Assembly: GCA_964577115.1 (NCBI GenBank)
Contig: CAZNXJ010000002.1
Span: forward strand, 252,285-316,284
Length of the DNA: 64,000 nucleotides
Direction of reading: 5' to 3'
Source: an uncultured Pirellulaceae bacterium
GTDB taxonomy: Bacteria > Planctomycetota > Planctomycetia > Pirellulales > Pirellulaceae
Positions within the stretch are counted from its first letter, which is position 1; each line of letters opens with the position of its first letter. The position numbers and the translations under genes were made by a program. Positions 32,185 through 55,155 of this stretch are shown here, in pieces. The notes under the pieces were generated by a model. That model did no database searches, was not told where the DNA came from, and saw only the letters and a list, made by a program, of their open reading frames with translations.

Positions 32185-35100
32185 GTGCCAGAGGGGGTGC
32201 CGACCATGAGCGATAGTGCGCCGTCTGTCAACCTCACCGACAATGTGTCGCGGCACTCCGCCGATCAGGGCGGGGTTATCACAGCGGACGTCGCCGCCGC
32301 GATGAATTTTGCATCGTGGCTGAACTCAGTGCCGCTGCTTCGTACGTTGACCATCGGCAACACCACGTCGCAGATTTGGAGCAATCTGCGGCTCGACTTG
32401 CAAACATCGCCTGCGTTTGCTCGCGCCAAGACATGGCATCTTGAACGGATCAACCCGGGCGAGCATGTTCGGCTCGGCGATCGAGATGTCCAGATCGACC
32501 CGGATTATCTGAACGGGTTGAATGAAGCCGAGCGTGGTCAGCTACAGTTTCGACTTTGGCAGGGCGACCAGCTGCTCGCGGAATCAATCTATGACATCCG
32601 CATCTTGGCCCGTGACGAATGGGGCGGGATGTCGAGCATGGCGGAACTGCTGGCCGCATTCGTCATGCCCAACGATCCAGGATTGGCGCGCGTGCTCAAG
32701 CGGGCGAGCAATCTACTTGCCCGGCATGGCCATTCGTCGGCGCTTGATGGTTACCAGAGCGGCGATCCGCGCCGCGCTTATATGTTGGCGGCCGCCGTCT
32801 GGTCGGCCGTTGCGGCCGAGAAGTTGTCGTACACAAATCCACCAGCCAGCTTTGAACGCTCCGGACAAAAAGTCCGGCGTCCGTCCGTTGTTCTCTCCGA
32901 CGGATTAGCGACCTGCCTGGACACGAGCCTGCTATTTGCTGCTGCGCTGGAGGCGATCGGACTGAACACGATTATCGTGATGCAAGACGGGCATTGTTTC
33001 ACCGGTGTATGGCTCGTCGAACGGACGCTTCCGCGGATTGTCACTACCGAATGCAGCGAAATTCGTAAGGCCATCGACGCACACGAGCTGCGAACATTTG
33101 AAACGACGCTGGTGACACATAACCCGCCCGCGCGTTTCGAGGACGCCATCCGGATGGCTCGGGATGCAACTCGCGAGGCGCAAGAAGGCCGGTTCCTTGC
33201 CGCCATCGATATCGCTCGGGCGCGCATGTCTCAGATCCGACCCCTGGCATCGCACGAAGCACGCGAGCTGCGCGTCGAGCAGGAAGCCGGCGGCGACGGT
33301 TCGCTTCCGTTGCCTAAACCGCCGGACTTCGGCGGGGTTCCCGCCGAAATCGCCGAGGAAAGGCCCTCGACGCCGGCGGGCCGCATTGAGCGCTGGCAGC
33401 GCAAGCTGTTGGACCTGTCGCTGCGGAATCGGCTGCTCAATTTTAGATCGGGCCAGTCAGCGGTCCCCGTGCTATGTCCGGACGCTGCATTACTCGAGGA
33501 TCGGCTTGCGGCCGGAGGGAAACTGCGTCTAATTTCGTTGCCCGAACACAATCCCTTGGGCGAGCGCGATGCGCAGTTGCACCAGCAGACGACTCATCAC
33601 GATATCAATATCGAGTTCGCGCGGCAGGCACTAGTTCGCGATGAACTCTGTTCGCCGCTTGGGGAACGCGAATTAGCAAACCGCCTGACGTCGCTTTATC
33701 GCAAAGTACGCAACGACCTTGCCGAAGGGGGTTCGAACACCTTGTATCTGGCGGTGGGCTTTCTGCGCTGGAAGCAGCGGCCGACCGATTCGAAAAGCTA
33801 TCTCGCGCCGTTGCTGCTGGTCCCCGTCAAGTTAACGCGTAAGAGTGCCATCTCGCCGTACCTGCTCTCCCAGCACGAGGATGACGTTCGCTTCAATGCG
33901 ACCCTGATCCAGCTTCTGCTGAAAGATTTCGGGCGTGACATTTCGGCCATCGATGCCAATCTGCCCATGGATGAACACGGCGTTGATGTTCCTCGCATGC
34001 TGGACTGGGTGCGCCACGAAGTGCGCGACATTCCCGGATTTGAGGTCGTCGATGACGTTGCCCTGTCGACGTTCTCGTTTGCCAAGTATCTGATGTGGAA
34101 GGATCTGGTCGACCGCATCCAACAGCTTGAACATAACCGTGTTGTGCGCCATCTCATTCGCGATCCGGATAAACCCTTTCAGTCCGATGCGCTCACCACG
34201 ATTCCGGCTCCATACGAGATCGATAAACGCTACGAACCAAAGGAGTTGGTTCACATCCTACCTGCCGACTCGTCGCAAGTTGCCGCGGTTATGGCAGCGT
34301 CGGAAGGTCATGACTTTGTGCTAATCGGACCACCCGGTACTGGTAAAAGTCAGACGATTGCCAACATCATCGCGCAATGTCTGGCAACGGGGAAATCGGT
34401 ACTGTTCGTCGCGGAGAAAACCGCCGCGCTGGATGTGGTATATCGGCGTCTGCGGGATTGCGGCCTGGGGGACTGTTGCATCGAGCTGCATTCGAATCGT
34501 GCGGAGCGCCGGAGATTTCTCGACCAACTCAAGGCATCCTGGGAAAACAACCGTCGCTCGAAGGCCGGCGACTGGCTCGACATCAACAAGCGGCTGAAGA
34601 TTCGTCGCGATGAACTGAATGCGTACGTGGATGCGATTCACGAGAAGCATCCCAATGGATGGACCGTCTTCCAGGCGCTCGGACTCTCGGTAGCCGGTGC
34701 GGAATTTCAAACGCCGCAGCTTTATTGGCCCGATACGGTCCATCATGACGTGGCTGCCTATCAGGACCTGCTGGAGATTGCCAGGGAACTCGGCCGCACG
34801 TTTGCCGTCCTGGATCCCGACGTTCGGCTTCCGGTGGCCAAGCGGCAGTGGTCAGCTGGTTGGGAAGCGAAGCTGCTTGCGGATTGCGCACGTCTCAAGT
34901 CCACCGCCGTGACGCTGCGAGAGTCGCTTGAGGAGTTCGCGGCGGCCGCTGGGTTGTCTGACGTAAAAGACGGATCGGCTCGCCAGCTGGAAAATTTTCG
35001 CCGGCTTGCCCACGCATTGCTTGAATGCGCTGGGAACGACGCGCGCGTCATGTTCAACAAGCAGTTCGGGCAGCTGCCAAAGCAGATTGCCGAACTGCAA

Positions 35101-38100
35101 ACGGCGATATCGGAGTATCGGCAGGCGGAAAATAGCGCTCGGGGAAAGTACTCGGCCGAGATCCTACCGCAGATCCCACTGGACGACCTCGATCACCGTT
35201 GGCGTGCTGCCAAGGCGTCTTTCTTTTTAATATCGTGGTTTGCCAAGCGTAAGGTGACCCGACTGCTCCAAAGCTACGCCAGCGAGGGCCAGGCGGATCC
35301 AGCGACCGATTTGGCGGCGCTTCGCACGATGCAAAAGCGGCTCGCTGATGTTTCCGCCATTTCGCTTCCCGAGTCGCTACCGGGCTGGCGGCAGCTGGAT
35401 TCCGATTTGGAGACCCTTCGTGCTCACGTTCAACGAGTGGCGACGCTGCGGGAGGCGATCATCGCGGTTGGCCAGTCGTCGGGCACGACGAATGCGATAA
35501 GTCGGGCGCTCCTGCCAGCACTGGGGGGCGAAGGATCTGATTTGCCCGTGTACCAGTGTGCGCGCACGTACTGCTCGGCGTGGGAAGACTTCCAACGCGC
35601 ACTGCAAGAATTTTCGCAAACGACCGAGACGCCCCCGGTCCGCGACGGCAGTGAAGCGGTAATAGCCGAAAGCATTGCCGCGGCCGAGCGCATTGAGAGC
35701 CGTCGGCATCACTTGCAGCGGTGGACGTTTTGGTGCGATGCGGCAGAGCGTGCGAAGGTTGCCGGTCTGTCCTCATTCGTCGCGGAGCTCGAGTCCGGTG
35801 CGCTTGCTCCGGACGATCTGGTCGATCGGCTTCGTCTCGCCTATGCCCGATGGTGGCTGCCGAGGGCGATTGACCGTAGTCCAGTGCTTCGCGGTTTCCA
35901 GCGGTTCAAGCACGAGGATATTATCGAGGATTTTCGTCGGCTCGACGACCTTGCGAGACGCACGGCATCGGCCGTCGTTCGGCGCGGGGTCGCGCACGAC
36001 CTGCCGGAGAGCGACGGGGTACCTCGGCGTTCGGAGCTGGGGATGCTGCGGCACCAGATTGGTCTAACGCGTCCGAGTAAGTCGATCCGCGAAGTGATCT
36101 CGAACATGCCGACTAGCTTTCCCAAGCTGGCTCGCTGCCTGCTCATGTCTCCGTTGTCCATCGCGCAGTATCTACCACCGGAACAAACGCCGTTCGATGT
36201 TGTGATTTTTGACGAGGCGTCCCAGATCACGACGTGGGACGCGATTGGCGCGATTGCTCGAGGCCGGCAAACGATCATCGTTGGGGATCCCAAGCAGCTT
36301 CCACCCACGAACTTCTTTGGACGCCTGGACGATGACGAGCAAAACGAGGAACTCGAGGATCATGAGAAGGACTTGGAGAGCATCCTTGACGAAGCCCAGG
36401 CGTCGGGACTACCCGTACTTCAGCTCAATTGGCATTACCGCAGCCAGCATGAATCCTTGATCGCGTTTTCGAACTGGCACTATTACGGCAACAAGCTGAT
36501 CACGTTTCCCGCGGCCGATTCGGAGGAGCGCGGAGTGGTCTTCCGGTACCTTGAGGAAGGCGTATATGACCGCGGAAAGAGCCGCACGAATCGTGTGGAA
36601 GCCGAAGCCATTGTTCGTGACGCGGTGCAGCGCATGCAGCGGGAACTCGCGAAGCCCGAAGACCAGCGCCGAACGTTTGGCGTCATTACGTTCAACATCC
36701 AGCAGCAAGGGTTGATCGAAGATCTGTTTGAGGAAGCTCTGCGCGAGAACCCTGAACTCGAATGGTTTTTTGCCGACGACCGTATCGAGCCGACCGTGGT
36801 GAAAAACCTGGAAAACGTGCAGGGCGACGAGCGGGACGTCATGTACTTCTCGGTCACGTTTGGGCGGGATCAGAGCCAGAAGTTTTCCATGAACTTCGGG
36901 GCGCTCAATCGGGACGGAGGAGAACGCCGCTTAAATGTCGCCATTACCCGTGCACGGCGCGAACTGCTCGTCTACTCCTCTTTCAAAGGCGAGGCCCTGT
37001 CCGCCGATCGTACCGACCGGCTCGGCGTTCTCCACCTGAAATACTTTTTGGAGTTTGCCGAGAAAGGAGCGAACGCATTACCCGCGGCAATCGAAGGTTC
37101 CGTCGGGGACTTCGAGTCGCCTTTCGAAGAAGCGGTTGCTGCAGCGTTGAAGAAACACGGTTGGCAGGTGGTGCCGCAGATTGGCGTATCCGGGTTTCGC
37201 GTCGATCTGGGAGTTGTGCATCCCGATAAGCCGGGATCGTATCTGGCTGGTGTGGAATGCGACGGGGCGACTTATCATCGATCGGCCGTAGCGCGCGACC
37301 GCGACAAAATCCGCCAGCAAGTGTTGGAAGGGTTGGGATGGAACATCCTGCGGGTATGGTCACCCGATTGGTGGTACGATTGTCAGTCGGCCGTTCAGCG
37401 CGTCCATGAGCAGCTTACGGCGTTGCTCGAAAGTGATCGTCGGCGCAACCGCGACAAGGAGGTAACCGCAGTTTCCGTTGCCACGCCGCAGCCGAGCGAC
37501 GATCCGAAAACTGTGACGGGGCATCGCGAGGACGTTCGGCCAGACGTCGTGATGCCGGCCAAACGCGTTGCGCAAGACATGAAACCACCCCGGAACGCCG
37601 AGCAACGGCAGCTCTTTGCCGGATCGACGACTCGTATCGAAGAGGCGAAATATTATTTCCGGCGAGCTGAACTGCCGGATGCGTCATCGCGCCAGCATCG
37701 CTTTTTCGAACATGATTACTCCGATGAGCTGCGAGCGATGCTTCTGTCCATCCTTCAGCAGGAGCAACCAATCCGGGAAGACGTGCTCGTCCGTCAAATT
37801 GCGCGCGTGCATGGCTTCGCGCGAGCCGGAGGCAACATACGCAAACGTGTAATCGAGTTGCTCGACGATGTAGCTCACACCGAGGAGACTACCGGGCGGT
37901 TCTTGTGGGTGAATGGGCCCGCGGAGGAAATCCCATTTCGTCACGCTCGCGATGAAAGCGATCGCCGGAGTCTCGAAGAGATTTCCATGGCGGAATTGAT
38001 TGGCCTGGTGCGCGCTAACCCGCATCTACGAAGCGACAACGATCCAGCGCTCTCGTACGCACGGCTTATTGGAATTGCCCGGCTCTCGAAAACGGCTCGC

Positions 38101-38148
38101 GAGCGGCTGGAGGCGGCGATCGCCGCGGCCGACGACGTACGCTCGTGA
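32185..38148 (+). CDS. 1987-aa multidomain protein: N-terminal transglutaminase-like Cys protease fold, DUF4011-like region, Upf1-like SF1 helicase, Vsr/DUF559-like endonuclease and a DUF3320-like C-terminus (Hhe-like single-gene defence candidate)
   Basis: Cys motif GLATCLDTSLLFAAALEAIG followed by DGHCFTGVWL (residues ~240–275). Walker A LIGPPGTGKSQTIANII (~34327). Helicase motifs DEASQ, QLNWHYRSQHESL and ITRARREL. Endonuclease-like block GFRVDLGVV...GVECDGATYH...GWNILRVWSPDWW. Confidence 0.8.
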   Translation: MPEGVPTMSDSAPSVNLTDNVSRHSADQGGVITADVAAAMNFASWLNSVPLLRTLTIGNTTSQIWSNLRLDLQTSPAFARAKTWHLERINPGEHVRLGDRDVQIDPDYLNGLNEAERGQLQFRLWQGDQLLAESIYDIRILARDEWGGMSSMAELLAAFVMPNDPGLARVLKRASNLLARHGHSSALDGYQSGDPRRAYMLAAAVWSAVAAEKLSYTNPPASFERSGQKVRRPSVVLSDGLATCLDTSLLFAAALEAIGLNTIIVMQDGHCFTGVWLVERTLPRIVTTECSEIRKAIDAHELRTFETTLVTHNPPARFEDAIRMARDATREAQEGRFLAAIDIARARMSQIRPLASHEARELRVEQEAGGDGSLPLPKPPDFGGVPAEIAEERPSTPAGRIERWQRKLLDLSLRNRLLNFRSGQSAVPVLCPDAALLEDRLAAGGKLRLISLPEHNPLGERDAQLHQQTTHHDINIEFARQALVRDELCSPLGERELANRLTSLYRKVRNDLAEGGSNTLYLAVGFLRWKQRPTDSKSYLAPLLLVPVKLTRKSAISPYLLSQHEDDVRFNATLIQLLLKDFGRDISAIDANLPMDEHGVDVPRMLDWVRHEVRDIPGFEVVDDVALSTFSFAKYLMWKDLVDRIQQLEHNRVVRHLIRDPDKPFQSDALTTIPAPYEIDKRYEPKELVHILPADSSQVAAVMAASEGHDFVLIGPPGTGKSQTIANIIAQCLATGKSVLFVAEKTAALDVVYRRLRDCGLGDCCIELHSNRAERRRFLDQLKASWENNRRSKAGDWLDINKRLKIRRDELNAYVDAIHEKHPNGWTVFQALGLSVAGAEFQTPQLYWPDTVHHDVAAYQDLLEIARELGRTFAVLDPDVRLPVAKRQWSAGWEAKLLADCARLKSTAVTLRESLEEFAAAAGLSDVKDGSARQLENFRRLAHALLECAGNDARVMFNKQFGQLPKQIAELQTAISEYRQAENSARGKYSAEILPQIPLDDLDHRWRAAKASFFLISWFAKRKVTRLLQSYASEGQADPATDLAALRTMQKRLADVSAISLPESLPGWRQLDSDLETLRAHVQRVATLREAIIAVGQSSGTTNAISRALLPALGGEGSDLPVYQCARTYCSAWEDFQRALQEFSQTTETPPVRDGSEAVIAESIAAAERIESRRHHLQRWTFWCDAAERAKVAGLSSFVAELESGALAPDDLVDRLRLAYARWWLPRAIDRSPVLRGFQRFKHEDIIEDFRRLDDLARRTASAVVRRGVAHDLPESDGVPRRSELGMLRHQIGLTRPSKSIREVISNMPTSFPKLARCLLMSPLSIAQYLPPEQTPFDVVIFDEASQITTWDAIGAIARGRQTIIVGDPKQLPPTNFFGRLDDDEQNEELEDHEKDLESILDEAQASGLPVLQLNWHYRSQHESLIAFSNWHYYGNKLITFPAADSEERGVVFRYLEEGVYDRGKSRTNRVEAEAIVRDAVQRMQRELAKPEDQRRTFGVITFNIQQQGLIEDLFEEALRENPELEWFFADDRIEPTVVKNLENVQGDERDVMYFSVTFGRDQSQKFSMNFGALNRDGGERRLNVAITRARRELLVYSSFKGEALSADRTDRLGVLHLKYFLEFAEKGANALPAAIEGSVGDFESPFEEAVAAALKKHGWQVVPQIGVSGFRVDLGVVHPDKPGSYLAGVECDGATYHRSAVARDRDKIRQQVLEGLGWNILRVWSPDWWYDCQSAVQRVHEQLTALLESDRRRNRDKEVTAVSVATPQPSDDPKTVTGHREDVRPDVVMPAKRVAQDMKPPRNAEQRQLFAGSTTRIEEAKYYFRRAELPDASSRQHRFFEHDYSDELRAMLLSILQQEQPIREDVLVRQIARVHGFARAGGNIRKRVIELLDDVAHTEETTGRFLWVNGPAEEIPFRHARDESDRRSLEEISMAELIGLVRANPHLRSDNDPALSYARLIGIARLSKTARERLEAAIAAADDVRS

Positions 38149-38173
38149 CGGAACCGACGCAGCGAAAATTCCG

Positions 38174-38202
38174 CCCGAAGCGCTGGCCTCCAGCGCTTCG
38201 GG
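38174..38202 (+). terminator. GC-rich perfect hairpin (13-bp stem, 3-nt loop) 26 nt after the stop of the 1987-aa gene
   Basis: cccgaagcgctgg-cct-ccagcgcttcggg. No U-tract follows, so it is not a canonical intrinsic terminator. Confidence 0.35.
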
Positions 38203-38438
38203 CGTCCGGCGAGGGGAGGAGAACCTTGTCACTCGCAGTTCTTTGCGAGCGTTGGTGCGCGTTTTTCCTGGCGCGACTTGTTTCTATGAGGGGTGCGCGA
38301 TAGCCTGTACGCAGTCTTTGGGGCATCAACTGCGCTGAGTTGCGGTAAGCCAGGAACGGCTTGCTCGTTGCGGTGCGCCGCCGCGCGATAATGCCACGAG
38401 AACCCGTGATCGTGATACGCAGAAATTATCGCGTCATA

Positions 38439-38480: not shown

Positions 38481-41400
38481 ATGACAAGTGCTCGTGGTCG
38501 TTCCGAGTATCTCCAGCAACTTGTTCGACAGGCGCTCAAGTTGCCTGCCGACCAGCGCGAAGCGTGGCTCGCTCGGCGGGCCGGGGAGGACAAACGGCTC
38601 CTCCATGAGCTCCAGGTGCTGCTTGAAAAATACGACCAGCCCCAGACGAAAGCCGGGCCCTTGGACACCATCGAGCTACCTCAGCCCGAGGCGGCGCCCG
38701 AGCGGCCCCGGGGGCTACGTATTCACTGCCCGCACTGCCACAATGCCGTCGAGGTGCTCAAAGACGCCGATGACGCGCTGGAACAGATCCTTTGCGAATC
38801 GTGCGGATCAAGCTTTCAGATCGTCGAAGGGCGGACAACCACCTACTCCTCCGAGTGTCGCCGAATTGGGCGCTTCACGCTCGTCGAGCAGCTCGGCGTC
38901 GGCGCGTACGGCGTCGTTTGGAGAGGACGCGATGCCGAGCTCGATCGTGAGGTGGCCGTCAAAATCCCGCGCGAAGGTCGGCTTTCTCCCGAGGAGCAGG
39001 CGAAATTCTTGCGCGAAGCGCGAGCCGCCGCGCAGTTGGCTCACCCCCATATTGTCGCCGTCCACGAAATTGGCCGGGACGACGGGCGGCTGTACATTGT
39101 CAGCGATCTGGTCCGCGGCCTGACGCTCGCTGATTGGCTCACCGGTCAGACGGCCTCGCCGCGGCAGGCAGCCGAATGGTGTGCCAAGATCGCCGACGCC
39201 CTCGACCACGCGCATCAGCAAGGCGTCGTCCATCGCGATCTTAAGCCCTCGAATGTGCTGCTCGACGAACAACTCGAACCCCGCATCACCGACTTCGGAC
39301 TGGCGAAGCGCGATGCGGGGGAAATCACGATGACGATCGAGGGACAGGTGCTCGGGACGCCGGCCTACATGAGTCCGGAGCAGGCACGGGGGAGCGGCCA
39401 TAACGCCGACCGCCGCTCGGATATCTATAGCTTGGGCGTGATCCTCTTCGAGCTGCTCACGGGCGAGCGTCCATTCCGCGGCAATGCGCGCATGCTGATT
39501 CATCAGGTGCTCTCCGAGGATGCGCCGAGCCCTCGGAAACTCGATGCTAGTATTCCACGAGATCTCGAAACGATCTGCCTCAAATGTCTCGAGAAGGATC
39601 CGGCGAAGCGGTATTCCACGGCAAGGGAATTGGCGGAAGAGCTGCGGCGTTGGCTGCGTGGCGAACCGGTACTCGCCCGGCCGATTAGCCGCGCCGCGCG
39701 GGCCGTTCGCTGGGCGCACCGGAACCGGGCCATCGCGGCGCTAGCGACCACCGTGCTCGTTGTGCTGCTCACCGGCATCGTCGTCTCGGGATCCTTTGCC
39801 GTGCTCGCCAATCGGCACGCCCAGGAATTGCAAATAGCACTGTGGAACGTTGACGCGCAGCGCTCCCGGGCCGATCAGCAGGCCGCCCAAGCTATCGCAC
39901 GCTCCGAGGAAGCTCGTCGCGAGCGGAATCGAGCCCTTCAAGCGGAGCGCGAAATGCGCCGCTTGCTCTACCAGGCCGATATGCGGAATGCCTTTCAGGC
40001 CCTCAGCGATGGGAACACCGGCCGTGTCCGCGAACATCTGCTCGCCCACGTGCCCGAGCCGGGGCAGACCGACCTGCGCGGATGGGAGTGGTATCACCTT
40101 TGGGATCGGATCCATGATTACACAACGTTGCTGCCGCACATGCCGGCCGTAACATCACTCGCCATCAGTAAAGACGGACGCTATCTCGCGTCAGTGGATG
40201 CCTCTTGGGGAATGGTCCGTTTCTGGGAGTTGCCGACAGGACAACTGGTCAGCCTCATTCGTGAGGCGACAAATCTGCGCCACGTTGAATTTTCGCCCGA
40301 CGGCACGTTGCTGACCGCAGGCAAATGGGATGTAACCGAAGCTCCGATCTGGAATTGGCAGCGCGGCTTGCCACAAACGACGCTTGAAGCGCCCGCGTCG
40401 CTGTTTGTTTCTGTCGCCTGGCATCCCGCCGGCAATCTTCTCGCCGGAGGCAGCAAATACAACGGCCGTATCCAGCTGTTTGATGTGTCGACAGGCGAGG
40501 TCGTTCGCGGGATGGCGGTGCCAACCTCGACGGTCGGGCGAATTACCTTCTCGCCAGATGGCTCGCTGTTGGCGGCTCGCGCGAACAGTGGCGAGATTCA
40601 CCTTATTGATATGGAAAGTGGCGAGACGCGGACAACGCTTCCAGGTTCCGGAGGATACGGCTTCGAGTTTTTTACGCTACGTTTCTCCGCCGACGGCGAG
40701 CGGCTTGTTACTTCCGGACCGCAAGGCACGCATTTGTGGGACGTTCGTAGTCCTGGCACAAGCACGCAACTCGAGGGACATTCCGCCGTAAACGACGCGG
40801 TGTTTTCTCCGGACGGCAGAATCGTTTATACCGCCGGGGATGATGGTCGTGTTGTCGCGCATCGGGCGGACAATGGTCAACCGCTCCAGGCCTATCTCGG
40901 GCATGCCCAGCGCGCACGTGCTCTGGTGATGAGTTCCGACGGGAAGTTGCTCGTATCGGCGGGCGAAGACGGGCTCATTCTGGTCCGGGATCTTGCCCGC
41001 CAGACGCCGACGGTTATCGACCAGTCGCTCGTTCTGGCTCACTCGCCGCCGAACGAGTCGCCGACGAGCCGCAGCGCCGCGTTCCTTCCCGACGGTCGGA
41101 TGATCAGCGCTTGGGGGAAGCACATCATCATTTGGAATGAGAAGTTCACCGCTCCCGAATCGCTGATCGATACGGGGACGAGCGTGCATCGATTTGCGGT
41201 CAGCCCGACGGGTGCGATCTGCGCAAGCTACCATCTCGGCGATCAGCGTATCGCTTTATGGGATGTTGCCCAGGGATCGCACATCGGAACCTTGGAGGCG
41301 CGGACACACGTAAATTGTCTCGCTTTCAGCCCGGATGGTGAGCAGCTGCTTGCCGGTGGAAGGGATCGCCACGGATTCGTCGTATGGGATCTCCAGACGC

Positions 41401-44400
41401 TTTCGCGCCATCACTCATTGCGAATTGACCACTGGGCAAATCGCGCAGCGTGGTCGCCCGACAGAAAGACCATCGCAGCGGCTTCGGATTTACCAGGTCC
41501 GGTGCAGCTCTATGATGCCGAGTCTGCTCGACCCCGAATGACGCTGGCTCGTCAAGATACCGAAATTTACGCTTTGGCCTTCTCGCCAGATGGACGCATG
41601 GTGGTCTCCGGCGGCGCCGACGCTAATGTCACCCTCTCGGATGCCGCCTCGGGCGAGACCATAAGTGTGTTGCGAGGACACATCGGTAGCGTTCTCGACT
41701 TAACGTTTTCACCCGACGGGAATCTTCTGGCTTCGGCCGCAACAGACGGTACTGTGCGCTTGTGGGACATTCCCGAAAGAAGGGAACGAGCTGTGTTCAG
41801 CGTCGGGAAAGACAAATCGATCACAACGGTTTGTTTTTCCCCCGATGGCCGCACACTCGTCGCGGTGGAAGGCGACCACCTCCACATTTGGCGAGCTGCC
41901 TCGGAGGACGACGTCGCGGCCCAATTGAGTAGGGAACGCGCGCTTCAGAATGTCAGCCGCCTCGAATTGTTGGAGAGCCTCGTACGTGGGCATGGGCGTC
42001 GTGATTTGGAACCGGATTTGGCGCACGCGATCTTCATGGAGGCCTACACGAACGTTATTCAAGGTGACATCAAAGCCGCCTCGGCCGCTCTCGAACGCGT
42101 GGAAGATTTGATCGAGAATGCGAAACCTCGGAACGAGGCGCTCGCTCTTCGCTGGCAGGAGCTCGCGTATTACATCGCCGAGCTCCGGCCGGCCATGCTG
42201 ATGGCAGAAGGACGCACACAGAAGGCGCAGGAAGCCCTGAAGGAGGCCTATCGGCTTTGGGGCGAATTTCCACAGGAACTGCAGCGGCGTCCTCTCGCCG
42301 GATTGGCTCTGCCCAACCGCGGAGAATTACGGCGTCAGCGGCTGGCCGCGGCCACAGAGGCCGAATTCGAACGCGCCGTTGCCGAGGAGTTTCTGTTCCA
42401 GAATCTTCCTCAGCCCGTCACGATCACGCTCGTGGATGGGACGACGCTCGTTTTGACAACTCCCCATGACGTCCCTGACGAGCCGTTCCATGTGCGCGAG
42501 ATTCGGCTGTGGTCGGATTCGGTAAGTGACGCCGATATCGAAATATTGGCTCGCCTGCCCGAGCTCGAGGCGCTCACGATTTTCGAATCGAACGAGACGC
42601 CGATCGACTCGGCGATTATTGACAAGCTTTCCCTACTGCGGCGACTGCGGCGACTGTCGCTCGACAAACTCTCAAGCCGCACATTGACCCACGTCGCGCA
42701 GCTCCGGCAGCTTGAGCAACTCACGCTGCGTGGTGCCGACCTCAGCCAGTTATCCGAGGATGACCTGGCCGCATTCGGGAGAATGGGAAACGTCCGATGG
42801 CTCGAACTCGATGGGACCGCTGCGAGTAACGAGCTCGTTAGGGCCATCGCCACGATGCCAAATCTCGAATACCTCAACCTCGCGAGAACTCCTGTAGCCG
42901 ACGAAGCGCTGCGGGAGCTCGCCGAGTGCTCAGGGCTGAAGTACTTGATTCTCGATAGCACACTGGTGAGCGACGAAGGGGTGATCGAGATTCTAACGCT
43001 CCCCAGTCTCCGCGAGCTCTTGCTCCGCGAGACGAACGTGACGGATGCGATCGTGGAGGCGGCGCTCCGCCGCGCGGAACCGCTTGACTATTTCGGGCTG
43101 AACGCAACGCGGGTGTCTTCCCGCGGCGTCGCACTGTTGCGGCACGCGTGGCCAAATTGTGAACTGTTCCATGATGCGAGCCCCGAGACGCGCAATGCCT
43201 CGCGCAGCTTCCCAGCGCTCGATACACTACGCCAACGGTTAAACGTGGTACGAGAGGAAATTGCGTCCGGCGCATCCACGGCGGCACGCTGGCGCTCGGA
43301 GCTCGTCCCGTGGCACTTTGCCGAGCAAGGAACGCCGCATGGTGTAGAGATCGCATCGCTTCTGCGCACCTTTCCCTGGCCACTGGACCAGCTCGAGCGA
43401 GCAGCACTAAGCGACGAGCAGCGGCGCATGATGGAAACGGTGGCGGGGCGCGTTCCCGAGGAACTTGTCGCCGTGTTCGGCGACGGCCGCCTCACGTTTT
43501 GGGGGGAAGGATTCGGACGAGCCGCCTTTGGGGAAAAGCATGTTGCAGTTTTGAGCTACAACGGTAACTACCAAGAATGGAACTCAGCCAACGGCCTGTT
43601 CGAACGTGTCGTCAAGGGCTGGCCGTCCGTGTGTGGGTTATCGCCCGACGGGTCGCTGGCTGCCTCCACTGATGAGAATACGCTCCGCGTCTGGGAGACC
43701 GCCGACGCGGCGGTCGTACGCGAGTGGGACGGTGTCGGGACCGTCCGGTTTGTCGCCTTCCGCCCCGGTGCCGATCAAATTGCGGTGGCCTTGGCTAACG
43801 GTCGCCTGAAGTTATACAGCTATGGAGATGTGACGGAGCCAATCGAAGTGCGGTCCGGAGGACCTGCGGCCGTCGCCGTCGATTTCGATCCGAGCGGCGA
43901 GTATTTGGTTGAACGTGACAGCGACATGGAACTCCGAGTCTGGCGTGTTCATCCATTGTCTGATCACCCTGCACCGATCGCATCCGTACGGACCCAGCAC
44001 GGCACCGATCGCGAAAATCGACTGCTCGCCGTTGCGCGCGACGCAAAAGTGATTGCTGTTGCGGGGACGTCGGCGATCGAACTTTACTTTGGTCATGATG
44101 GAACGCGGATTGGCCAAATCGATCTGCGGATGCTAAACCGCGACAATCGCCGACTCGATTTGCTCGATTCACTCGCCATCTCGCCGGATGGAAGTCTGCT
44201 TGTGGGCGGCGACAACTCGGGCCAGATCGGATTTTGGAGTGTTCCAGATGGTCAGAATCTGGGAATTATCCGCGAGCGCGTCAGCTGGGTGAACATTTTG
44301 GAATTCAGCGACGACGGCAAGCTGCTGGCCGCCGGCGGGCACGATAGCCTGACGCTCATCGACCCGGTACTACGGACAGTAGTCGCCCAGGCTGATCCGC

Positions 44401-45263
44401 TCGCCGGCGTGAACTCGCTCGTCGTCAGCCCTCAGGGCGACCAGGTTTTTGCCGGCAGCGTAGCCGTTACGGCCTGGCGCATTCCGGAAGGCTCCCCGGC
44501 AGGCCAAATGGGAGACCGATACTTTGCCACTGCACTGGCCAATCATGCGCAAGCGCCGGGGCTTTGGATATACCAGCTTTGGCAGATCAACCTGTTCAAT
44601 CCCCGCTCGATGAAGAGCCAACGCCAGCGAGCAATCCCGCTTCGTGTCGACGGACCGTTTACCATCAACTCCGCCGGGACCACCCTGGCTGTGGGAGGCC
44701 AGGAGCTTGAGCTGTGGGATTTGCAGACGGGGACGCGGCTCCCCAGTATTTCTCGGTCCGACGGCAAAGTTGTCGCCCTGGCGCTTAGCGATGACGGAAC
44801 GCTCATAGCCGCGTGTATCGAGCAGAACGATACGCAGCGTCTGGAGCTTTTTAATACCGTAAGCGGCAAGCTCATCCATTCGTTCGAAGTTCCGGAAGGT
44901 CAGCACTTAACCTGCCTGGCGTTCAGCCCCGACAGTCGAATATTGGTTGGCGCGGGCTGGGGCGGTCCGCCGCGGCGCTGGAAGGTGGACGACGGCAGCT
45001 CGCTATCGTCGCTCGATGCAGGGGAGGTGAGCGGCCTCGATTTTAGCCCCGATGGGCGCTGGCTTGCGGCGTTGGGACGCGACGAGACAATTCGGATCTG
45101 GGACGCCGTGACGGGCGAAGCGGCGCGGACCATTGCGCTTGGCGAGGATCTCTCGGATGCCTGGCTACGCTCATTAAGCTTTGCGCCCGACAGCCGGCAT
45201 TTGCTGGTCGGTACGGCCAGCGGCATGGTGCTCGTGTTTCGGATAGAAGAGCAAGGGAGATAG
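38481..45263 (+). CDS. Giant (2260 aa) membrane-anchored Ser/Thr protein kinase with zinc ribbon, WD40 beta-propeller arrays and an internal leucine-rich-repeat block
   Basis: Zinc ribbon CPHCHN...CESCG. Kinase motifs GVGAYGVVW, HRDLKPSNVLLD, DFGLAK, GTPAYMSPE. TM helix IAALATTVLVVLLTGIVVSGSF. Many SPDG/WD-like repeats. LRR region (~42470–43160) LRRLSLDKLS...LEYLNLARTPV...LRELLLRETNV. Confidence 0.85.
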   Translation: MTSARGRSEYLQQLVRQALKLPADQREAWLARRAGEDKRLLHELQVLLEKYDQPQTKAGPLDTIELPQPEAAPERPRGLRIHCPHCHNAVEVLKDADDALEQILCESCGSSFQIVEGRTTTYSSECRRIGRFTLVEQLGVGAYGVVWRGRDAELDREVAVKIPREGRLSPEEQAKFLREARAAAQLAHPHIVAVHEIGRDDGRLYIVSDLVRGLTLADWLTGQTASPRQAAEWCAKIADALDHAHQQGVVHRDLKPSNVLLDEQLEPRITDFGLAKRDAGEITMTIEGQVLGTPAYMSPEQARGSGHNADRRSDIYSLGVILFELLTGERPFRGNARMLIHQVLSEDAPSPRKLDASIPRDLETICLKCLEKDPAKRYSTARELAEELRRWLRGEPVLARPISRAARAVRWAHRNRAIAALATTVLVVLLTGIVVSGSFAVLANRHAQELQIALWNVDAQRSRADQQAAQAIARSEEARRERNRALQAEREMRRLLYQADMRNAFQALSDGNTGRVREHLLAHVPEPGQTDLRGWEWYHLWDRIHDYTTLLPHMPAVTSLAISKDGRYLASVDASWGMVRFWELPTGQLVSLIREATNLRHVEFSPDGTLLTAGKWDVTEAPIWNWQRGLPQTTLEAPASLFVSVAWHPAGNLLAGGSKYNGRIQLFDVSTGEVVRGMAVPTSTVGRITFSPDGSLLAARANSGEIHLIDMESGETRTTLPGSGGYGFEFFTLRFSADGERLVTSGPQGTHLWDVRSPGTSTQLEGHSAVNDAVFSPDGRIVYTAGDDGRVVAHRADNGQPLQAYLGHAQRARALVMSSDGKLLVSAGEDGLILVRDLARQTPTVIDQSLVLAHSPPNESPTSRSAAFLPDGRMISAWGKHIIIWNEKFTAPESLIDTGTSVHRFAVSPTGAICASYHLGDQRIALWDVAQGSHIGTLEARTHVNCLAFSPDGEQLLAGGRDRHGFVVWDLQTLSRHHSLRIDHWANRAAWSPDRKTIAAASDLPGPVQLYDAESARPRMTLARQDTEIYALAFSPDGRMVVSGGADANVTLSDAASGETISVLRGHIGSVLDLTFSPDGNLLASAATDGTVRLWDIPERRERAVFSVGKDKSITTVCFSPDGRTLVAVEGDHLHIWRAASEDDVAAQLSRERALQNVSRLELLESLVRGHGRRDLEPDLAHAIFMEAYTNVIQGDIKAASAALERVEDLIENAKPRNEALALRWQELAYYIAELRPAMLMAEGRTQKAQEALKEAYRLWGEFPQELQRRPLAGLALPNRGELRRQRLAAATEAEFERAVAEEFLFQNLPQPVTITLVDGTTLVLTTPHDVPDEPFHVREIRLWSDSVSDADIEILARLPELEALTIFESNETPIDSAIIDKLSLLRRLRRLSLDKLSSRTLTHVAQLRQLEQLTLRGADLSQLSEDDLAAFGRMGNVRWLELDGTAASNELVRAIATMPNLEYLNLARTPVADEALRELAECSGLKYLILDSTLVSDEGVIEILTLPSLRELLLRETNVTDAIVEAALRRAEPLDYFGLNATRVSSRGVALLRHAWPNCELFHDASPETRNASRSFPALDTLRQRLNVVREEIASGASTAARWRSELVPWHFAEQGTPHGVEIASLLRTFPWPLDQLERAALSDEQRRMMETVAGRVPEELVAVFGDGRLTFWGEGFGRAAFGEKHVAVLSYNGNYQEWNSANGLFERVVKGWPSVCGLSPDGSLAASTDENTLRVWETADAAVVREWDGVGTVRFVAFRPGADQIAVALANGRLKLYSYGDVTEPIEVRSGGPAAVAVDFDPSGEYLVERDSDMELRVWRVHPLSDHPAPIASVRTQHGTDRENRLLAVARDAKVIAVAGTSAIELYFGHDGTRIGQIDLRMLNRDNRRLDLLDSLAISPDGSLLVGGDNSGQIGFWSVPDGQNLGIIRERVSWVNILEFSDDGKLLAAGGHDSLTLIDPVLRTVVAQADPLAGVNSLVVSPQGDQVFAGSVAVTAWRIPEGSPAGQMGDRYFATALANHAQAPGLWIYQLWQINLFNPRSMKSQRQRAIPLRVDGPFTINSAGTTLAVGGQELELWDLQTGTRLPSISRSDGKVVALALSDDGTLIAACIEQNDTQRLELFNTVSGKLIHSFEVPEGQHLTCLAFSPDSRILVGAGWGGPPRRWKVDDGSSLSSLDAGEVSGLDFSPDGRWLAALGRDETIRIWDAVTGEAARTIALGEDLSDAWLRSLSFAPDSRHLLVGTASGMVLVFRIEEQGR

Positions 45264-47063: not shown

Positions 47064-50000
47064 TTAGGCGCGGTTCCGAGCGGCTTCCAGCTCGGCGAGA
47101 AGCCGCTGGTAGCTGGCCAGGCAGGTTTCGACCGATTGCTGGAGCCGAGTGACCTCGGCCGTTTGCCGTTCGGTCGATTGCTGCAGGGGCGCAAGCCACG
47201 CATTCATCAGCTCGAACTGCCGCTGAACGACCTCCAAAATCGAACGCGGCACCTTGTGCTGCACCACGACTTTGGAAATGGCCTTCCCGTCTGTCTCGGA
47301 CGGCGCGTCGCTGCCGGGCAACGCCGTTGGGCGAGCGATCGATTCGCGCAAGGCGCCGAGCTGCTCGGCGAGCGCATCCATCCGCGCGATGGTCAGCTGC
47401 TGATCGCCGTCCTGCTGAGCGAGGCGCGCGGTGGCGTCGATGACGGCTTTGCGGATCATTTCCAGGCCTTCGGTGACGCTGCCCAGCTGCGCGATGACGA
47501 GGCCCGCTTTATCGTCCGAACCAACGCCACGCAGCTTGAGGTTCTGCCGGAAGGCCCGGCAGATATCGTCCCAGCGCTGCTGCTGCTCGTCGGTCATGAT
47601 GCCCATGAGCTGCCGGAACTTCAGCAGATTCGCCTCGGTGTCGGCGGTCAGTGTCTGCGCGTCGTTCTCATAGTTCGAAACGATGAGCCCCGTCAGCTCG
47701 TCGTCGTTCATCATCGGCACTACTTTCTCGGCGATACGGTTCATGTTGCGGTACGAGCCCTGCAACTTGAACGGCGGCTCCGTGCGGTACTCGTCGGCTT
47801 GTGCCGCCGAGCGGATGTACTGCCGGTTGACGCGGAGCACCACATCGCGGACGCGCAGCAGCTTCTTCAGCACGGACACCGCGTCAGCAATCTCGTCGGG
47901 CGAGTAATTACCTTCCAGTTCGACGTCGCTCTGATTGCCCGTCGTGGCGATTTTTAGCAGCCCGTGGATATCCTGTGGATACCGCCCGACGATCTGGGCG
48001 AGCGTCGGGTTCGACATCATCGAGTTTTCGACGTAGCTCAGTTCGAAGACATCCTGCGTATCGCCAATGATTTCACCGAGATTGTAGATGTCGGCCCGGT
48101 TGGCCAGCATGTCCGGGATCTGGAACCGTTCGCCGCTTTCCGTGTACGGATTGCCCGCCATGACGACTGCCACCCGCCTGCCGCGCAGATCGTAGGTGCG
48201 CGAGCGGCCGCGGTAAACACCTTCGATTCTGCGCTGTGCGTCGCACAGCGAAATGAACTTCTGGAGTAGCTCGGGATGGCAATGCTGAATGTCGTCGAGG
48301 TACAGCATCACGTTGTCGCCCATCTCGAGTGCCAGGTTCAGACGCTCGAGCTCCTCCCGCGCCGCGGCATTGGTGGCCTCCGAAGGATCGATGGACGTTA
48401 CTCGGTGACCGATTGCCGGGCCATTGATTTTCACGAAGACGAGTCCGAGACGATTCGCCAGGTATTCCATCAGCGTCGTCTTGCCGTATCCCGGCGGAGA
48501 CACGAGCAGCAATAGCCCCATCCGCTCGGCTCGCTTCTGATCGCCCGCCGCGCCGATCTGTTTGGCCAGGTTGTCACCGATCAGCGGGAGATAAACCGAA
48601 TCGATGAGCTTGTTGCGGACGAATGACGACAGGACTTTGGCCTGGAAATCGGCGAGTCGCAGCCGCTCGCGCGCTTCGTCGATCAGTTCGCGTTTCCGCG
48701 CCGTGAGACGCGTGAATCGCGGCACGACGTCGGCCATGTACCGGCTGAGCTTATGGCAGAACGTGTTGTAATGGAGATCGTATGTGTGCTCTCGCACGAC
48801 CGGATGATCGCCCGCCATCGGGCTCAGCCGCCGCCGCAGCTCGCCGTCGCTGATCTTCGCGGCGTCGAGCTTTCCTTGGAGCAAGAGGACGGCGAATTCA
48901 TCCGCGTAGATCTCGTCGTCGCTCGTCGGGCGCCCCGCGAGAAACGCATTCGCCCAGTCGCGGGCAAGACGCAGCGAAGTGAGTGGGTGTTGCTGGACGG
49001 CGTGCAGCGACTTCTGAAAGGCTTCGGTGCCCTGGTGGGTACGGAGCTGCGCGTGAAATTCGTCGTACAGGTTGGCTGCGGTGCGACTGACAACGAACCC
49101 GACATCGCGAACACATTCGGCGTAAAGGTATTCCGCCGCCTCCCGCGCATGGGAACGATCGAACACACCGCTCCGCATGGCGAAGTCGTCGAGCGCTTCG
49201 GCTAGTTCCGCCACGTACGCGTCGCGCTGTTCAGGCCTCGGAAAATAACGTACGACCGCGCTGTGCCCTCGTAACAGGGCCGATAACCGCGACTTTTCGG
49301 CGGGCTCGCAGAAGTACGTCCAGTAGGCAACCGCCATGGCCCGTGCGGCCGGATGGTATCGAAGCAGTCCGGCGAGCGACCGCACTTCGGCGAGCGCATG
49401 CACCAGCAGGCTCGCGTCGACATCGTGCACGCCCTTCAAATAGCCTTCCTGGTAGCGCGGCCCCATGAATCGGCGGACCCATTCCAGTCGCTGCGCCTCG
49501 TCCATTTGCATGATGGCCGCGAGCGTCGGGCCTTCGGGCGTATCGATCGTCTGTAGTAGTTGATACGCCAGGTACTCGGCGCGGTACACCTGCGAGTTTT
49601 CCGAGACAAGCTCCTGCGACCAAAGGTCGCGCGCCGCATCGAGCGCTGGATCGTCAATCGGTTCGAAGTAGTTCGTCCCGGTCAGGTGAATATGCATCCG
49701 GTTGTCGCGGACGATAAGCGTCACGTCGAGCGGCTGCGTGTTGACAGAGAAGCGGTGCCGGCCGAGCTGAATGGTGTTCTCGCCGGCGACAAACAGGTCC
49801 TGCCGGTCGCGAAGCTGCCGCAGCCCGTCCTCGCGCAGGGCCTTCAGCCGGCTTTGTAGCTCGTCGACTTTGACGCTGTCTTCGAGCTCGGTGAGCTGCC
49901 GGATGATGTCGCGGACTTTTTCGACCATCAGGTCGGACGCGAAGTAGCCATTGATTTCGCTGACCGACTGAAGCGTATCGATCCGCGACTTCATGCCCTT

Positions 50001-54508: not shown

Positions 54509-55155
54509 GCCTTCACCTCTTCTTCGACGTGGGGCTGTTGAACTTTTTCGACGTAATAAATGAGCGTGGCGGGGTCGTAGTCCACGATGCGAGCGCGATC
54601 GCCGCGCGTCAGCACGCCGCTGCGCGACCGGACGTGTAGCAGTAGCGGTGCGCCTTCCGTGGGGAGTTTGGCCTGCCCGTGCTGGTCGGTTACCTCGGAT
54701 GTCGAGATCGTACAGATCTCGCCAACCAGGTCCTTCGACCGGCGCAGCTCCGTGCGGTCGACCAGGCGGGTCATCGGTTGAGTGATCAGCTTGGTTGCCA
54801 GCAGCGCGACCGCTCCGTTGCGCAGCATCGTCTGTAGGGCAATCCAGTTGTCCTTGTTGGCCGCCGGTTCGTGCCAGAGAACCGACGTCAGCCACCAGGC
54901 GAGGGCAAATACCGTCATCCAGAGCATTAAGGGAATCGAGCCCAAATTTAGGAAGCGCAGGACGATCGCCCCGGACCCGGCAAACCAGCCGGAATGGGAT
55001 CCTGCATCTGCGTCCACATCGATCTCGAAAACGTCAAACATTTCGAGATCCAGTGCGCCGAGAATGACAAACGCCCAGTAGATGCTGACGAGGATCAGCA
55101 TCAGGGATGCGGGTAACGCCGGGCCCGAAAAGCAGGTATGCAGGATGTCGCTCAT
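54505..55155 (-). CDS. NfeD/YqiJ-like membrane protein (flotillin partner) with a C-terminal OB-fold
   Basis: TM segments LMLILVSIYWAFVILGAL and LMLWMTVFALAWWL, plus a C-terminal beta-barrel signature GEICTISTSEVTDQHGQAKL...GDRARIVDYD. Internal start at MSDIL; the listed ORF extends to 55323. Confidence 0.7.
   Translation of the reverse strand: MSDILHTCFSGPALPASLMLILVSIYWAFVILGALDLEMFDVFEIDVDADAGSHSGWFAGSGAIVLRFLNLGSIPLMLWMTVFALAWWLTSVLWHEPAANKDNWIALQTMLRNGAVALLATKLITQPMTRLVDRTELRRSKDLVGEICTISTSEVTDQHGQAKLPTEGAPLLLHVRSRSGVLTRGDRARIVDYDPATLIYYVEKVQQPHVEEEVKA

What the first reader, a model, noticed from the sequence alone, without database searches (positions are those of the whole stretch)
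32185..38148. Hhe-like giant helicase–Vsr-like nuclease protein with an extra N-terminal transglutaminase-like domain
The order of domains matches the single-gene Hhe defence architecture as I recall it from the PADLOC study. After the N-terminal domain come a DUF4011-like region, an SF1 (Upf1/AAA_11-12) helicase, a DUF559/Vsr-like endonuclease and a DUF3320-like tail. Before all of that there is a clear transglutaminase-like core, a Cys motif (GLATCLDTSLLFAAALEAIG) followed by DGHCFTGVWL. I do not recall that core being part of Hhe. A protease-like sensor or effector fused to a helicase-nuclease would be a new variant. The gene is flanked by a hairpin, and on its other side by an FHA–sigma-54 regulator.
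Basis: partly seen in the sequence, partly recalled or inferred. Interest (0 to 1): 0.7.

Follow-up and report, generated by a model that had tools for sequence, protein, structure and literature searches.

The report
Known ProA-type helicase–nuclease defence gene
This 1,980-residue gene is an ordinary full-length member of ProA, a large protein family that NCBI already labels as anti-phage; ProA is a sister family of Hhe, and its transglutaminase-like N-terminal domain is a standard family feature, not a new fusion.

Summary
The ORF is real. It runs 32185-38148 as listed; the likely start is ATG 32206, giving 1,980 aa.

The N-terminal 345 residues model confidently (pLDDT 88.9) as a beta-sandwich plus a transglutaminase-like core. 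Cys237 and His263 are invariant, and position 299 is always acidic (34 Glu, 1 Asp).

It is not an Hhe variant. It scores 2,142 bits on NCBIfam NF058533, 'anti-phage protein ProA' (cut-off 1,500), matching the whole model, N-terminus included. It scores only 780 bits on Hhe (cut-off 2,000). A Klebsiella protein annotated as Hhe (PGAP product name) shows the reverse pattern, and its DUF4011 starts at residue 30.

The N-terminal module is found in at least 585 species genomes and in thousands of protein clusters. Among the hits inspected it always heads proteins of this type. Many copies are on plasmids or conjugative elements.

In this window the neighbours are housekeeping genes, but the gene's GC3 is the lowest in the window.

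I could not find the paper that named ProA, so the mechanism given here is inferred. About a quarter of homologues sit next to an Mre11/Rad50-like gene pair, which remains unexplained.

The parts
32206..38148 (+). ProA-family CDS, 1,980 aa plus stop. The maximal ORF starts at GTG 32185.
32190..32197 (+). Shine-Dalgarno-like AGAGGGGG, 8 nt before ATG 32206
   Evidence: read directly from the sequence
32251..32604 (+). N-terminal beta-sandwich (Ig-like) subdomain, aa 16-133
32623..33240 (+). Transglutaminase-like (papain-fold) core, aa 140-345. Cys237 is codon 32914-32916, His263 is 32992-32994, Glu299 is 33100-33102.
   Evidence: Cys and His are invariant in 35 diverse full-length homologues; position 299 is Glu in 34 and Asp in 1.
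33403..33918 (+). DUF4011 domain, aa 400-571
34267..34470 (+). First part of the SF1 helicase, with Walker A GPPGTGKSQ (aa 708-716)
   Evidence: AAA_19/AAA_30/AAA_11; invariant motif; PDB sequence hits to IGHMBP2 and Upf1
34483..36105 (+). Poorly conserved insertion of about 540 aa between Walker A and Walker B; no Pfam family. Hhe has an uncharacterised stretch in the same position.
36184..36975 (+). Second part of the SF1 helicase: DEASQ (1336-1340), GDxxQLPP (1360-1367), QGxERD (1539-1544), RLNVAxxR (1575-1582)
   Evidence: AAA_11 and AAA_12; invariant columns; PDB hits to Sen1 and DNA2
37123..37416 (+). MTES_1575 / Vsr-like nuclease domain (PD-(D/E)xK-type by prior knowledge), aa 1640-1737. 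Conserved residues: D1667, E1684, D1686, Y1690, D1698, R1699.
   Evidence: Pfam 3.7e-35; conservation
37699..37845 (+). DUF3320 in the C-terminal tail, aa 1832-1880. Optional in the family: homologues of about 1,750 aa lack it.
38172..38204 (+). Perfect 15-bp stem-loop 24 nt after the stop codon, with no U tract. A possible terminator or RNA-stability element.
   Evidence: not picked up by the terminator scan

Best explanation
The gene encodes a full-length member of the ProA family (NCBIfam NF058533; PADLOC candidate PDC-S37). This is a stand-alone, horizontally mobile giant protein and a sister family of the Hhe defence protein.

Most likely mechanism (inferred):
- The split Upf1-like SF1 helicase loads on invading nucleic acid and translocates using ATP.
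- The C-terminal MTES_1575/Vsr-like nuclease cuts that nucleic acid.
- The N-terminal beta-sandwich plus transglutaminase-like module has a conserved Cys237-His263-Glu299 set. It acts as the trigger or regulatory part, either by sensing or processing a phage or host protein, or as a second cysteine-dependent (protease- or deamidase-type) effector.
- DUF4011 and the DUF3320 tail are accessory nucleic-acid or regulatory modules.

Shown here: family membership, domain anatomy, conservation of catalytic-type residues, mobility and the lack of an obligate partner.
Inferred: the defence role in this organism, the substrates, and the job of each module.
For: - Family membership. ProA equivalog score is 2,142.3 against a cut-off of 1,500, covering model positions 1-1903. 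PDC-S37 scores 1,217 bits. Hhe is below its cut-off. Reciprocal discrimination was checked with an annotated Hhe and four other ProA-type proteins.
- All enzymatic modules look active. Helicase motifs I, II, III, V and VI, the nuclease acidic residues, and Cys237/His263/acidic 299 are conserved across 35 full-length homologues with 33-64% identity to the window protein.
- The transglutaminase-like fold is supported.
- Mobile, single-gene behaviour. The N-terminal module occurs on 82 plasmids, 25 of them conjugative. Examples are a lone gene beside IS110 and repA on an IncF plasmid and a P. aeruginosa plasmid carrying ICE-type conjugation genes. Relatives occur in at least 585 species genomes across several phyla, and no neighbour is conserved in all of them.
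- Some neighbours are defence-type: PDC-S06 and a type IV restriction-like protein.
- GC3 of the gene is 0.67, against 0.76 +/- 0.026 for the other 21 genes in the window.
Against: - I could not find any paper describing ProA in 10 literature searches. The 'anti-phage' label therefore rests on NCBI's model name alone.
- In this window the neighbours are housekeeping genes: menaquinone genes, ComB, a sigma-54 activator, a Ser/Thr kinase with WD40 repeats, TrkA, RecG and PriA. No defence island is apparent.
- 19 of 67 homologous loci carry an adjacent Mre11/Rad50-like pair, which would fit a DNA-repair role equally well.
- The geometry of the Cys-His-Glu triad could not be checked because no model coordinates were available.
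- The transglutaminase-like domain is below Pfam threshold by sequence.
Confidence: 0.6

Rival explanations
1. It is a housekeeping or stress-induced DNA-repair or replication-restart helicase-nuclease, not an immune protein. It would work on host DNA ends or structures, in some lineages together with an Mre11/Rad50-like (SbcCD-like) nuclease-ATPase pair.
For: - An SbcD-like metallophosphoesterase and an SbcC/Rad50-like ATPase lie directly adjacent to the homologue in 19 of 67 loci, with gaps of 3-70 nt in the 17 loci where the pair lies downstream on the same strand. This is seen in Alphaproteobacteria and Planctomycetota.
- The window is chromosomal and housekeeping in character, with RecG and PriA 7-14 kb upstream.
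- A large DUF4011 gene is reported as a core gene of P. aeruginosa (PMC10250203). I did not test whether that gene is ProA-type.
Against: - NCBI curates the family as anti-phage.
- Distribution is patchy, and the gene is carried as cargo on conjugative plasmids and a plasmid with ICE-type conjugation genes.
- Synteny is not conserved across species.
- GC3 is atypical for the window.
- Most loci, including this one, lack the SbcCD-like pair.
Confidence: 0.2
2. It is a variant of the Hhe defence protein that newly acquired a transglutaminase-like N-terminal domain.
For: The central architecture is shared: DUF4011, a split SF1 helicase and an MTES_1575 nuclease. Identity to an annotated Hhe is 33-37%. 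The PADLOC Hhe model gives a partial hit of 531 bits.
Against: - The protein is below the Hhe cut-off (780 vs 2,000) and above the ProA cut-off, and the discrimination is reciprocal.
- The N-terminal module is part of the ProA model. It occurs in 6,607 cluster representatives (2,044 at E<=1e-30); in the top 150 listed it sits at or near the N-terminus of proteins of about 1,750-2,400 aa or of shorter fragments. It is therefore not new.
Confidence: 0.05
3. It mainly serves competition between mobile elements (anti-plasmid or anti-ICE) rather than phage defence, or it targets RNA as eukaryotic Upf1-like helicases do.
For: It is frequently carried on plasmids. The helicase core is closest in sequence to the RNA/DNA helicases IGHMBP2, Sen1 and Upf1.
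Against: There are no data either way. The Vsr/MTES_1575 nuclease fold is typically DNA-directed (prior knowledge), and the curated name says anti-phage.
Confidence: 0.1

Closest known systems
ProA (NCBIfam NF058533.1, 'anti-phage protein ProA', equivalog); the PADLOC-DB v2 candidate PDC-S37 hits the same protein from residue 393 onward
   Same: End-to-end match above the curated cut-off: N-terminal beta-sandwich and transglutaminase-like module, DUF4011, split SF1 helicase, MTES_1575 nuclease and DUF3320 tail. Homologues from Enterobacter, Rhizobium and Planctomycetota score alike.
   Different: Nothing structural. This copy is chromosomal and sits among housekeeping genes of a probable planctomycete. 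It lacks the Mre11/Rad50-like neighbours that 19 of 67 homologous loci have. The PADLOC PDC-S37 model starts only at DUF4011 (protein residue 393), so it does not include the N-terminal module.
Hhe / HheA (NCBIfam NF042953; PADLOC PDLC02194). From my own knowledge, it was first described as a single-gene DUF4011 helicase plus Vsr-like nuclease defence by Gao et al. 2020, not by the PADLOC study.
   Same: DUF4011, a Walker A/Walker B-split Upf1-like helicase and a C-terminal MTES_1575/Vsr-like nuclease. Identity is 37% over the helicase C-terminal part and nuclease, and 33% over DUF4011 and the helicase N-terminal part. Both are often plasmid-borne single genes.
   Different: Hhe has no N-terminal module: its DUF4011 starts at residue 30, and window residue 394 aligns with Hhe residue 24. 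Hhe has no DUF3320 hit. The scores are mutually below each other's cut-offs.
Transglutaminase-like / papain-fold cysteine enzymes (animal TG2, TG3 and factor XIII, PNGase, bacterial putative proteases 3kd4 and 3isr, TglA)
   Different: No significant sequence similarity (Pfam E=0.063). The third triad position is Glu rather than Asp and follows an inserted helix. The module is fused to a helicase-nuclease, and its activity is unknown.

Membership tests
ProA (NCBIfam NF058533) | Whole-protein HMM score at or above the curated equivalog cut-off (1,500 bits), with end-to-end model coverage | tested here: met
   2,142.3 bits; protein aa 34-1959 match model positions 1-1903 of 1903
ProA (NCBIfam NF058533) | N-terminal module of about 390 aa ahead of DUF4011 (model positions 1 to about 427), which separates ProA from Hhe | tested here: met
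   Present and conserved. An annotated Hhe aligns to the ProA model only from position 428.
ProA (NCBIfam NF058533) | Demonstrated protection against phage | not testable with these tools
   Only the curated name is available. The primary paper was not found in 10 searches.
Hhe (NCBIfam NF042953) | Whole-protein HMM score at or above 2,000 bits | tested here: not met
   780 bits in two partial stretches. A Klebsiella protein annotated as Hhe scores 2,736.
Hhe (NCBIfam NF042953) | DUF4011 at the extreme N-terminus, with no preceding domain | tested here: not met
   DUF4011 starts at aa 400 here and at aa 30 in the annotated Hhe
Hhe (NCBIfam NF042953) | DUF4011, then SF1 (AAA_11/AAA_12) helicase, then Vsr-like nuclease, in that order | tested here: met
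PADLOC PDC-S37 (defence candidate) | Near full-length match to model PDLC05009 | tested here: met
   1,217 bits; aa 393-1975 match model positions 9-1533 of 1550. PADLOC's own thresholds and system rules were not available.
Transglutaminase-like superfamily (Pfam Transglut_core PF01841) | Pfam gathering score | tested here: not met
   14 bits against a cut-off of 23, E=0.063
Transglutaminase-like superfamily (Pfam Transglut_core PF01841) | Transglutaminase/papain-like fold | tested here: met
Transglutaminase-like superfamily (Pfam Transglut_core PF01841) | Cys-His-Asp catalytic triad | tested here: inconclusive
   Cys237 and His263 are invariant. Position 299 is Glu in 34 of 35 and Asp in 1. 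Asp335 is also invariant.
Defence-island gene | Neighbourhood enriched in known defence genes | tested here: not met
   For this window, the neighbours are housekeeping by Pfam, and the two nearby large unknown proteins have no PADLOC hit. In other genomes the context is mixed: PDC-S06, type IV restriction-like, toxin-antitoxin, plasmid or conjugative-element cargo, but also metabolic genes. No statistical test was done.

The most novel reading that the evidence does not exclude
The N-terminal module keeps an invariant Cys-His-acid set. It may be a catalytically active protein-modifying or proteolytic domain that couples recognition of a phage protein to activation of the helicase-nuclease. 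Such a sensing principle may not yet be described for ProA or Hhe-type proteins.

Separately, the ProA + Mre11-like + Rad50-like three-gene arrangement seen in 19 of 67 loci may be an undescribed multi-gene variant. Neither point is specific to this window's copy, which lacks the extra genes.
Probability: 0.25. Interest if true: 0.55.

Novelty: already known. Interest (0 to 1): 0.2.

Why it matters
As a discovery it matters little. Current NCBI models would name this protein 'anti-phage protein ProA', and the supposedly extra domain is the hallmark that separates ProA from Hhe.

Three points have residual value:
- The ProA N-terminal module has no Pfam family. Here it is shown by structure prediction to be a beta-sandwich plus a transglutaminase-like core with conserved catalytic-type residues, which gives a concrete mutagenesis target.
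- ProA-type genes are common in Planctomycetota, a phylum whose phage defence I believe is little studied (prior knowledge).
- The recurrent adjacency to an Mre11/Rad50-like pair suggests a functional link to DNA-end processing that may be worth testing.

Tried and rejected
- Literature. Ten full-text searches failed to find the paper that named ProA (PDC-S37; ProA with anti-phage, helicase or nuclease; DUF4011; DUF3320; transglutaminase with Vsr). What is experimentally known about ProA therefore remains unchecked.
- Sequence search of PDB. The whole protein hits only generic Upf1, Sen1, IGHMBP2 and DNA2 helicase cores. The N-terminal profile hits nothing meaningful.
- The afdb50 fold library was unavailable.
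- E. coli complete genomes were searched with the Enterobacter ProA DNA in near and distant modes. There was no match, so no up-to-date RefSeq product name or E. coli context could be obtained.
- Sigma-54 promoter upstream of the gene: none found. Window-wide matches are at chance level (22 observed, 26 expected). The idea that the adjacent FHA-sigma54 activator controls the gene has no support.
- Sigma-70 promoter and intrinsic-terminator scans gave nothing above chance.
- The SbcCD-like neighbours as named partners (ProB/ProC) or as a known PADLOC system: no such hits.
Full report
**Observation**

The window has one uninterrupted ORF at 32185-38148 on the + strand. An ATG at 32206 follows AGAGGGGG by 8 nt. 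The 1,980-aa product from that ATG is exactly what gene callers produced on 21 independent metagenome contigs, all with the same neighbours.

Pfam gives these hits:
- DUF4011, aa 400-571.
- An SF1 Upf1-like helicase split in two: a Walker A part at about aa 688-755, and AAA_11/AAA_12 at aa 1327-1590.
- An MTES_1575 restriction-endonuclease-like domain, aa 1640-1737. The related DUF559/Vsr model is only sub-threshold.
- DUF3320, aa 1832-1880.

No Pfam family covers aa 1-390. The upstream gene is an FHA-GAF-sigma54-activator-HTH protein, and the downstream gene is a 2,260-aa Ser/Thr kinase with WD40 propellers. A perfect 15-bp stem-loop lies 24 nt after the stop codon.

**The N-terminal module**

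- Homologues of aa 1-400 are 40-61% identical across Planctomycetota, Alphaproteobacteria and Bacteroidota. Wherever the sequence is long enough, DUF4011 follows.
- An AlphaFold2 model built from 35 sequences is confident (pLDDT 88.9, pTM 0.84). It shows a beta-sandwich (aa 16-133) followed by an alpha/beta core (aa 140-345).
- The top Foldseek hits are TG3 and TG2, aligned across both subdomains.
- By sequence the link is only sub-threshold. Transglut_core scores E=0.063, and DUF553 (a transglutaminase-like domain) is hit in 9 of 35 homologues.
- In 35 diverse full-length homologues (33-64% identity to the window protein), Cys237, Asp239, His263, Trp269, Asp335 and Arg340 are invariant. Position 299 is Glu in 34 and Asp in 1.
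- In the model's secondary structure, Cys237 sits at the start of a helix and His263 at the start of the next beta-hairpin strand. Glu299 ends the following strand, in an F-E-T-T motif that resembles the transglutaminase 'D-P-T' motif. That motif comparison is from my own knowledge of the superfamily.
- I therefore read the triad as Cys-His-Glu, but I could not measure its geometry.

**Which family it belongs to**

- The PADLOC library gives a near full-length hit to candidate PDC-S37 (1,217 bits, from residue 393 onward) and a partial hit to Hhe (531 bits).
- NCBIfam gives 2,142 bits on NF058533, 'anti-phage protein ProA' (equivalog, cut-off 1,500). The match covers model positions 1-1903 and protein aa 34-1959, so it includes the N-terminal module. 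The Hhe model gives only 780 bits against a cut-off of 2,000.
- As a control I fetched a Klebsiella plasmid gene whose PGAP product name is Hhe. Its DUF4011 starts at residue 30 and it has no DUF3320 hit.
- That Hhe aligns with the window protein at 33-37% identity from window residue 394 onward. It scores 2,736 on Hhe but only 1,132 on ProA, starting at ProA model position 428.
- ProA-type proteins from Enterobacter, Rhizobium and two planctomycete size classes all score above 2,000 on ProA and below 830 on Hhe.

The two families are sisters. The N-terminal module is the feature that separates them. The window protein is a typical ProA, not a modified Hhe.

**Spread of the architecture**

- A profile of the N-terminal module finds 6,607 cluster representatives (2,044 at E<=1e-30) among 1.84 billion proteins. 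In the top 150 the module sits at or near the N-terminus (starting within the first ~200 residues), in proteins of about 1,750-2,400 aa or shorter fragments.
- At least 585 species-representative genomes encode it.
- Full-length homologues number in the thousands and carry only generic names.
- The module is on 82 plasmids in PLSDB (Acinetobacter, Raoultella, Rhizobium, Klebsiella and others), 25 of them conjugative.
- Individual contexts vary: a lone gene beside IS110 and repA on an IncF plasmid; a P. aeruginosa plasmid carrying ICE-type conjugation genes; next to a large integrase on Acinetobacter plasmids; among carotenoid and iron-uptake genes on a Paracoccus plasmid.
- Only one phage-labelled contig carries a relative.

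**Context**

In the window, the surrounding genes are housekeeping: NuoF, NiFe hydrogenase, PFOR, PriA, RecG, futalosine-pathway menaquinone genes, ComB and TrkA. I see no defence island.

There is no sigma-54 promoter upstream. The FHA-sigma54 regulator does not recur beside homologues elsewhere.

The gene's GC3 is 0.67. That is the lowest of 22 genes in the window (the other 21 average 0.76, sd 0.026). The adjacent kinase gene is next lowest at 0.684. This is compatible with horizontal acquisition.

Across 67 loci with a near full-length homologue (over 1,200 aa), no neighbour is universal, which fits a single-gene system. Some neighbours are defence-type, namely PDC-S06 and a type IV restriction-like helicase.

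Unexpectedly, 19 loci carry a directly adjacent Mre11/SbcD-like phosphoesterase and Rad50/SbcC-like ATPase pair. In the 17 where the pair lies downstream on the same strand, the gaps are 3-70 nt. These loci span Mesorhizobium and related Alphaproteobacteria, Bradyrhizobium and Planctomycetota. The pair matches no PADLOC system and no named NCBIfam family. The window lacks it.

**Mechanism**

All three enzyme-like modules keep their catalytic-type residues:
- Walker A: GPPGTGKSQ.
- Walker B: DEASQ.
- Helicase motifs III, V and VI.
- The nuclease acidic residues D1667, E1684 and D1686.

The best-supported reading has four parts:
- ProA is an autonomous ATP-driven helicase-nuclease that attacks invading nucleic acid.
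- The helicase provides translocation. From prior knowledge, Upf1-like SF1B helicases move 5'-to-3'.
- The Vsr-like domain does the cutting.
- The transglutaminase-like module acts as sensor, regulator or second effector.

Only anatomy and conservation are shown here. Substrates, trigger and the defence phenotype are inferred. The phenotype rests on NCBI's curated name, whose source paper I could not find in ten searches.

The main rival is a DNA-repair role, supported by the Mre11/Rad50-like neighbours and the housekeeping context. I give it about 0.2.

**Dead ends**

- DUF4011 has no recognisable solved fold.
- PDB has no close sequence relative of the whole protein or of the N-terminal module.
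- E. coli genomes hold no near relative.
- The afdb50 library was unavailable.

**Verdict**

The thing observed is an already curated, very widespread family, ProA. In that family the 'extra' domain is standard. Novelty: already known. Interest is low.

The residual novelty is general to the family, not specific to this window: the unexplored chemistry of the N-terminal Cys-His-Glu module and the recurrent Mre11/Rad50-like partners.

Noticed in passing
L029:16336-21106, L010:15994-19736, L066:15969-19717, L089:17918-21672 and 15 further loci (not in the window): ProA homologues in 19 of 67 loci have a directly adjacent Mre11/SbcD-like metallophosphoesterase plus Rad50/SbcC-like (AAA_27/SMC_N) ATPase. 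In 17 loci the pair is downstream on the same strand with gaps of 3-70 nt; in 2 Bradyrhizobium loci it is upstream. There are two sequence subtypes, and the loci span Alphaproteobacteria and Planctomycetota. The pair is not a PADLOC v2 system and has no NCBIfam name. It could be an undescribed three-gene variant or a link to DNA repair.
   Followed up: partly
window 47064-52394 (-) and 52442-54895 (-): A 1,776-aa protein with DUF3686 ('ATPase involved in DNA repair', E 3.5e-183), DUF7902 and AAA_5 lies next to an 817-aa protein with no Pfam hit. Neither matches any PADLOC model or passes any NCBIfam cut-off.
   Followed up: partly
window 38481-45263 (+): A 2,260-aa Ser/Thr kinase with multiple WD40 propellers lies immediately downstream of ProA. 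Its GC3 (0.684) is the second lowest in the window after ProA (0.67), so the two genes may have arrived together. In other species it did not recur beside ProA in the ±4-gene neighbour clustering.
   Followed up: partly
window 38172-38204: A perfect 15-bp GC-rich stem-loop (GCCCGAAGCGCTGG...CCAGCGCTTCGGGC) lies after the ProA stop codon and has no U tract. It was not checked for repetition elsewhere in the genome (REP-like element).
   Followed up: partly
homologues P0148, P0161 and others (about 1,750 aa) versus P0188, P0184 and others (about 2,130 aa): The ProA family has size classes. A short class lacks the DUF3320 tail (it matches the ProA model only up to position 1715). A long class is about 150 aa longer than the window protein. 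The tail is therefore dispensable for family membership.
   Followed up: partly
H71, MT836269.1:10326-11294: An 11.4-kb human-gut contig labelled 'Bacteriophage sp.' encodes a relative of the ProA N-terminal module (35% identity, 81% coverage). It is the only hit in 50,697 phage records.
   Followed up: no
PMC10250203 (P. aeruginosa cDHS1): A large DUF4011 gene is reported as a core gene flanking a P. aeruginosa defence hotspot. Whether it is ProA-type or Hhe-type was not tested. If it is ProA-type, a strictly 'accessory defence' view of the family would need qualifying.
   Followed up: no
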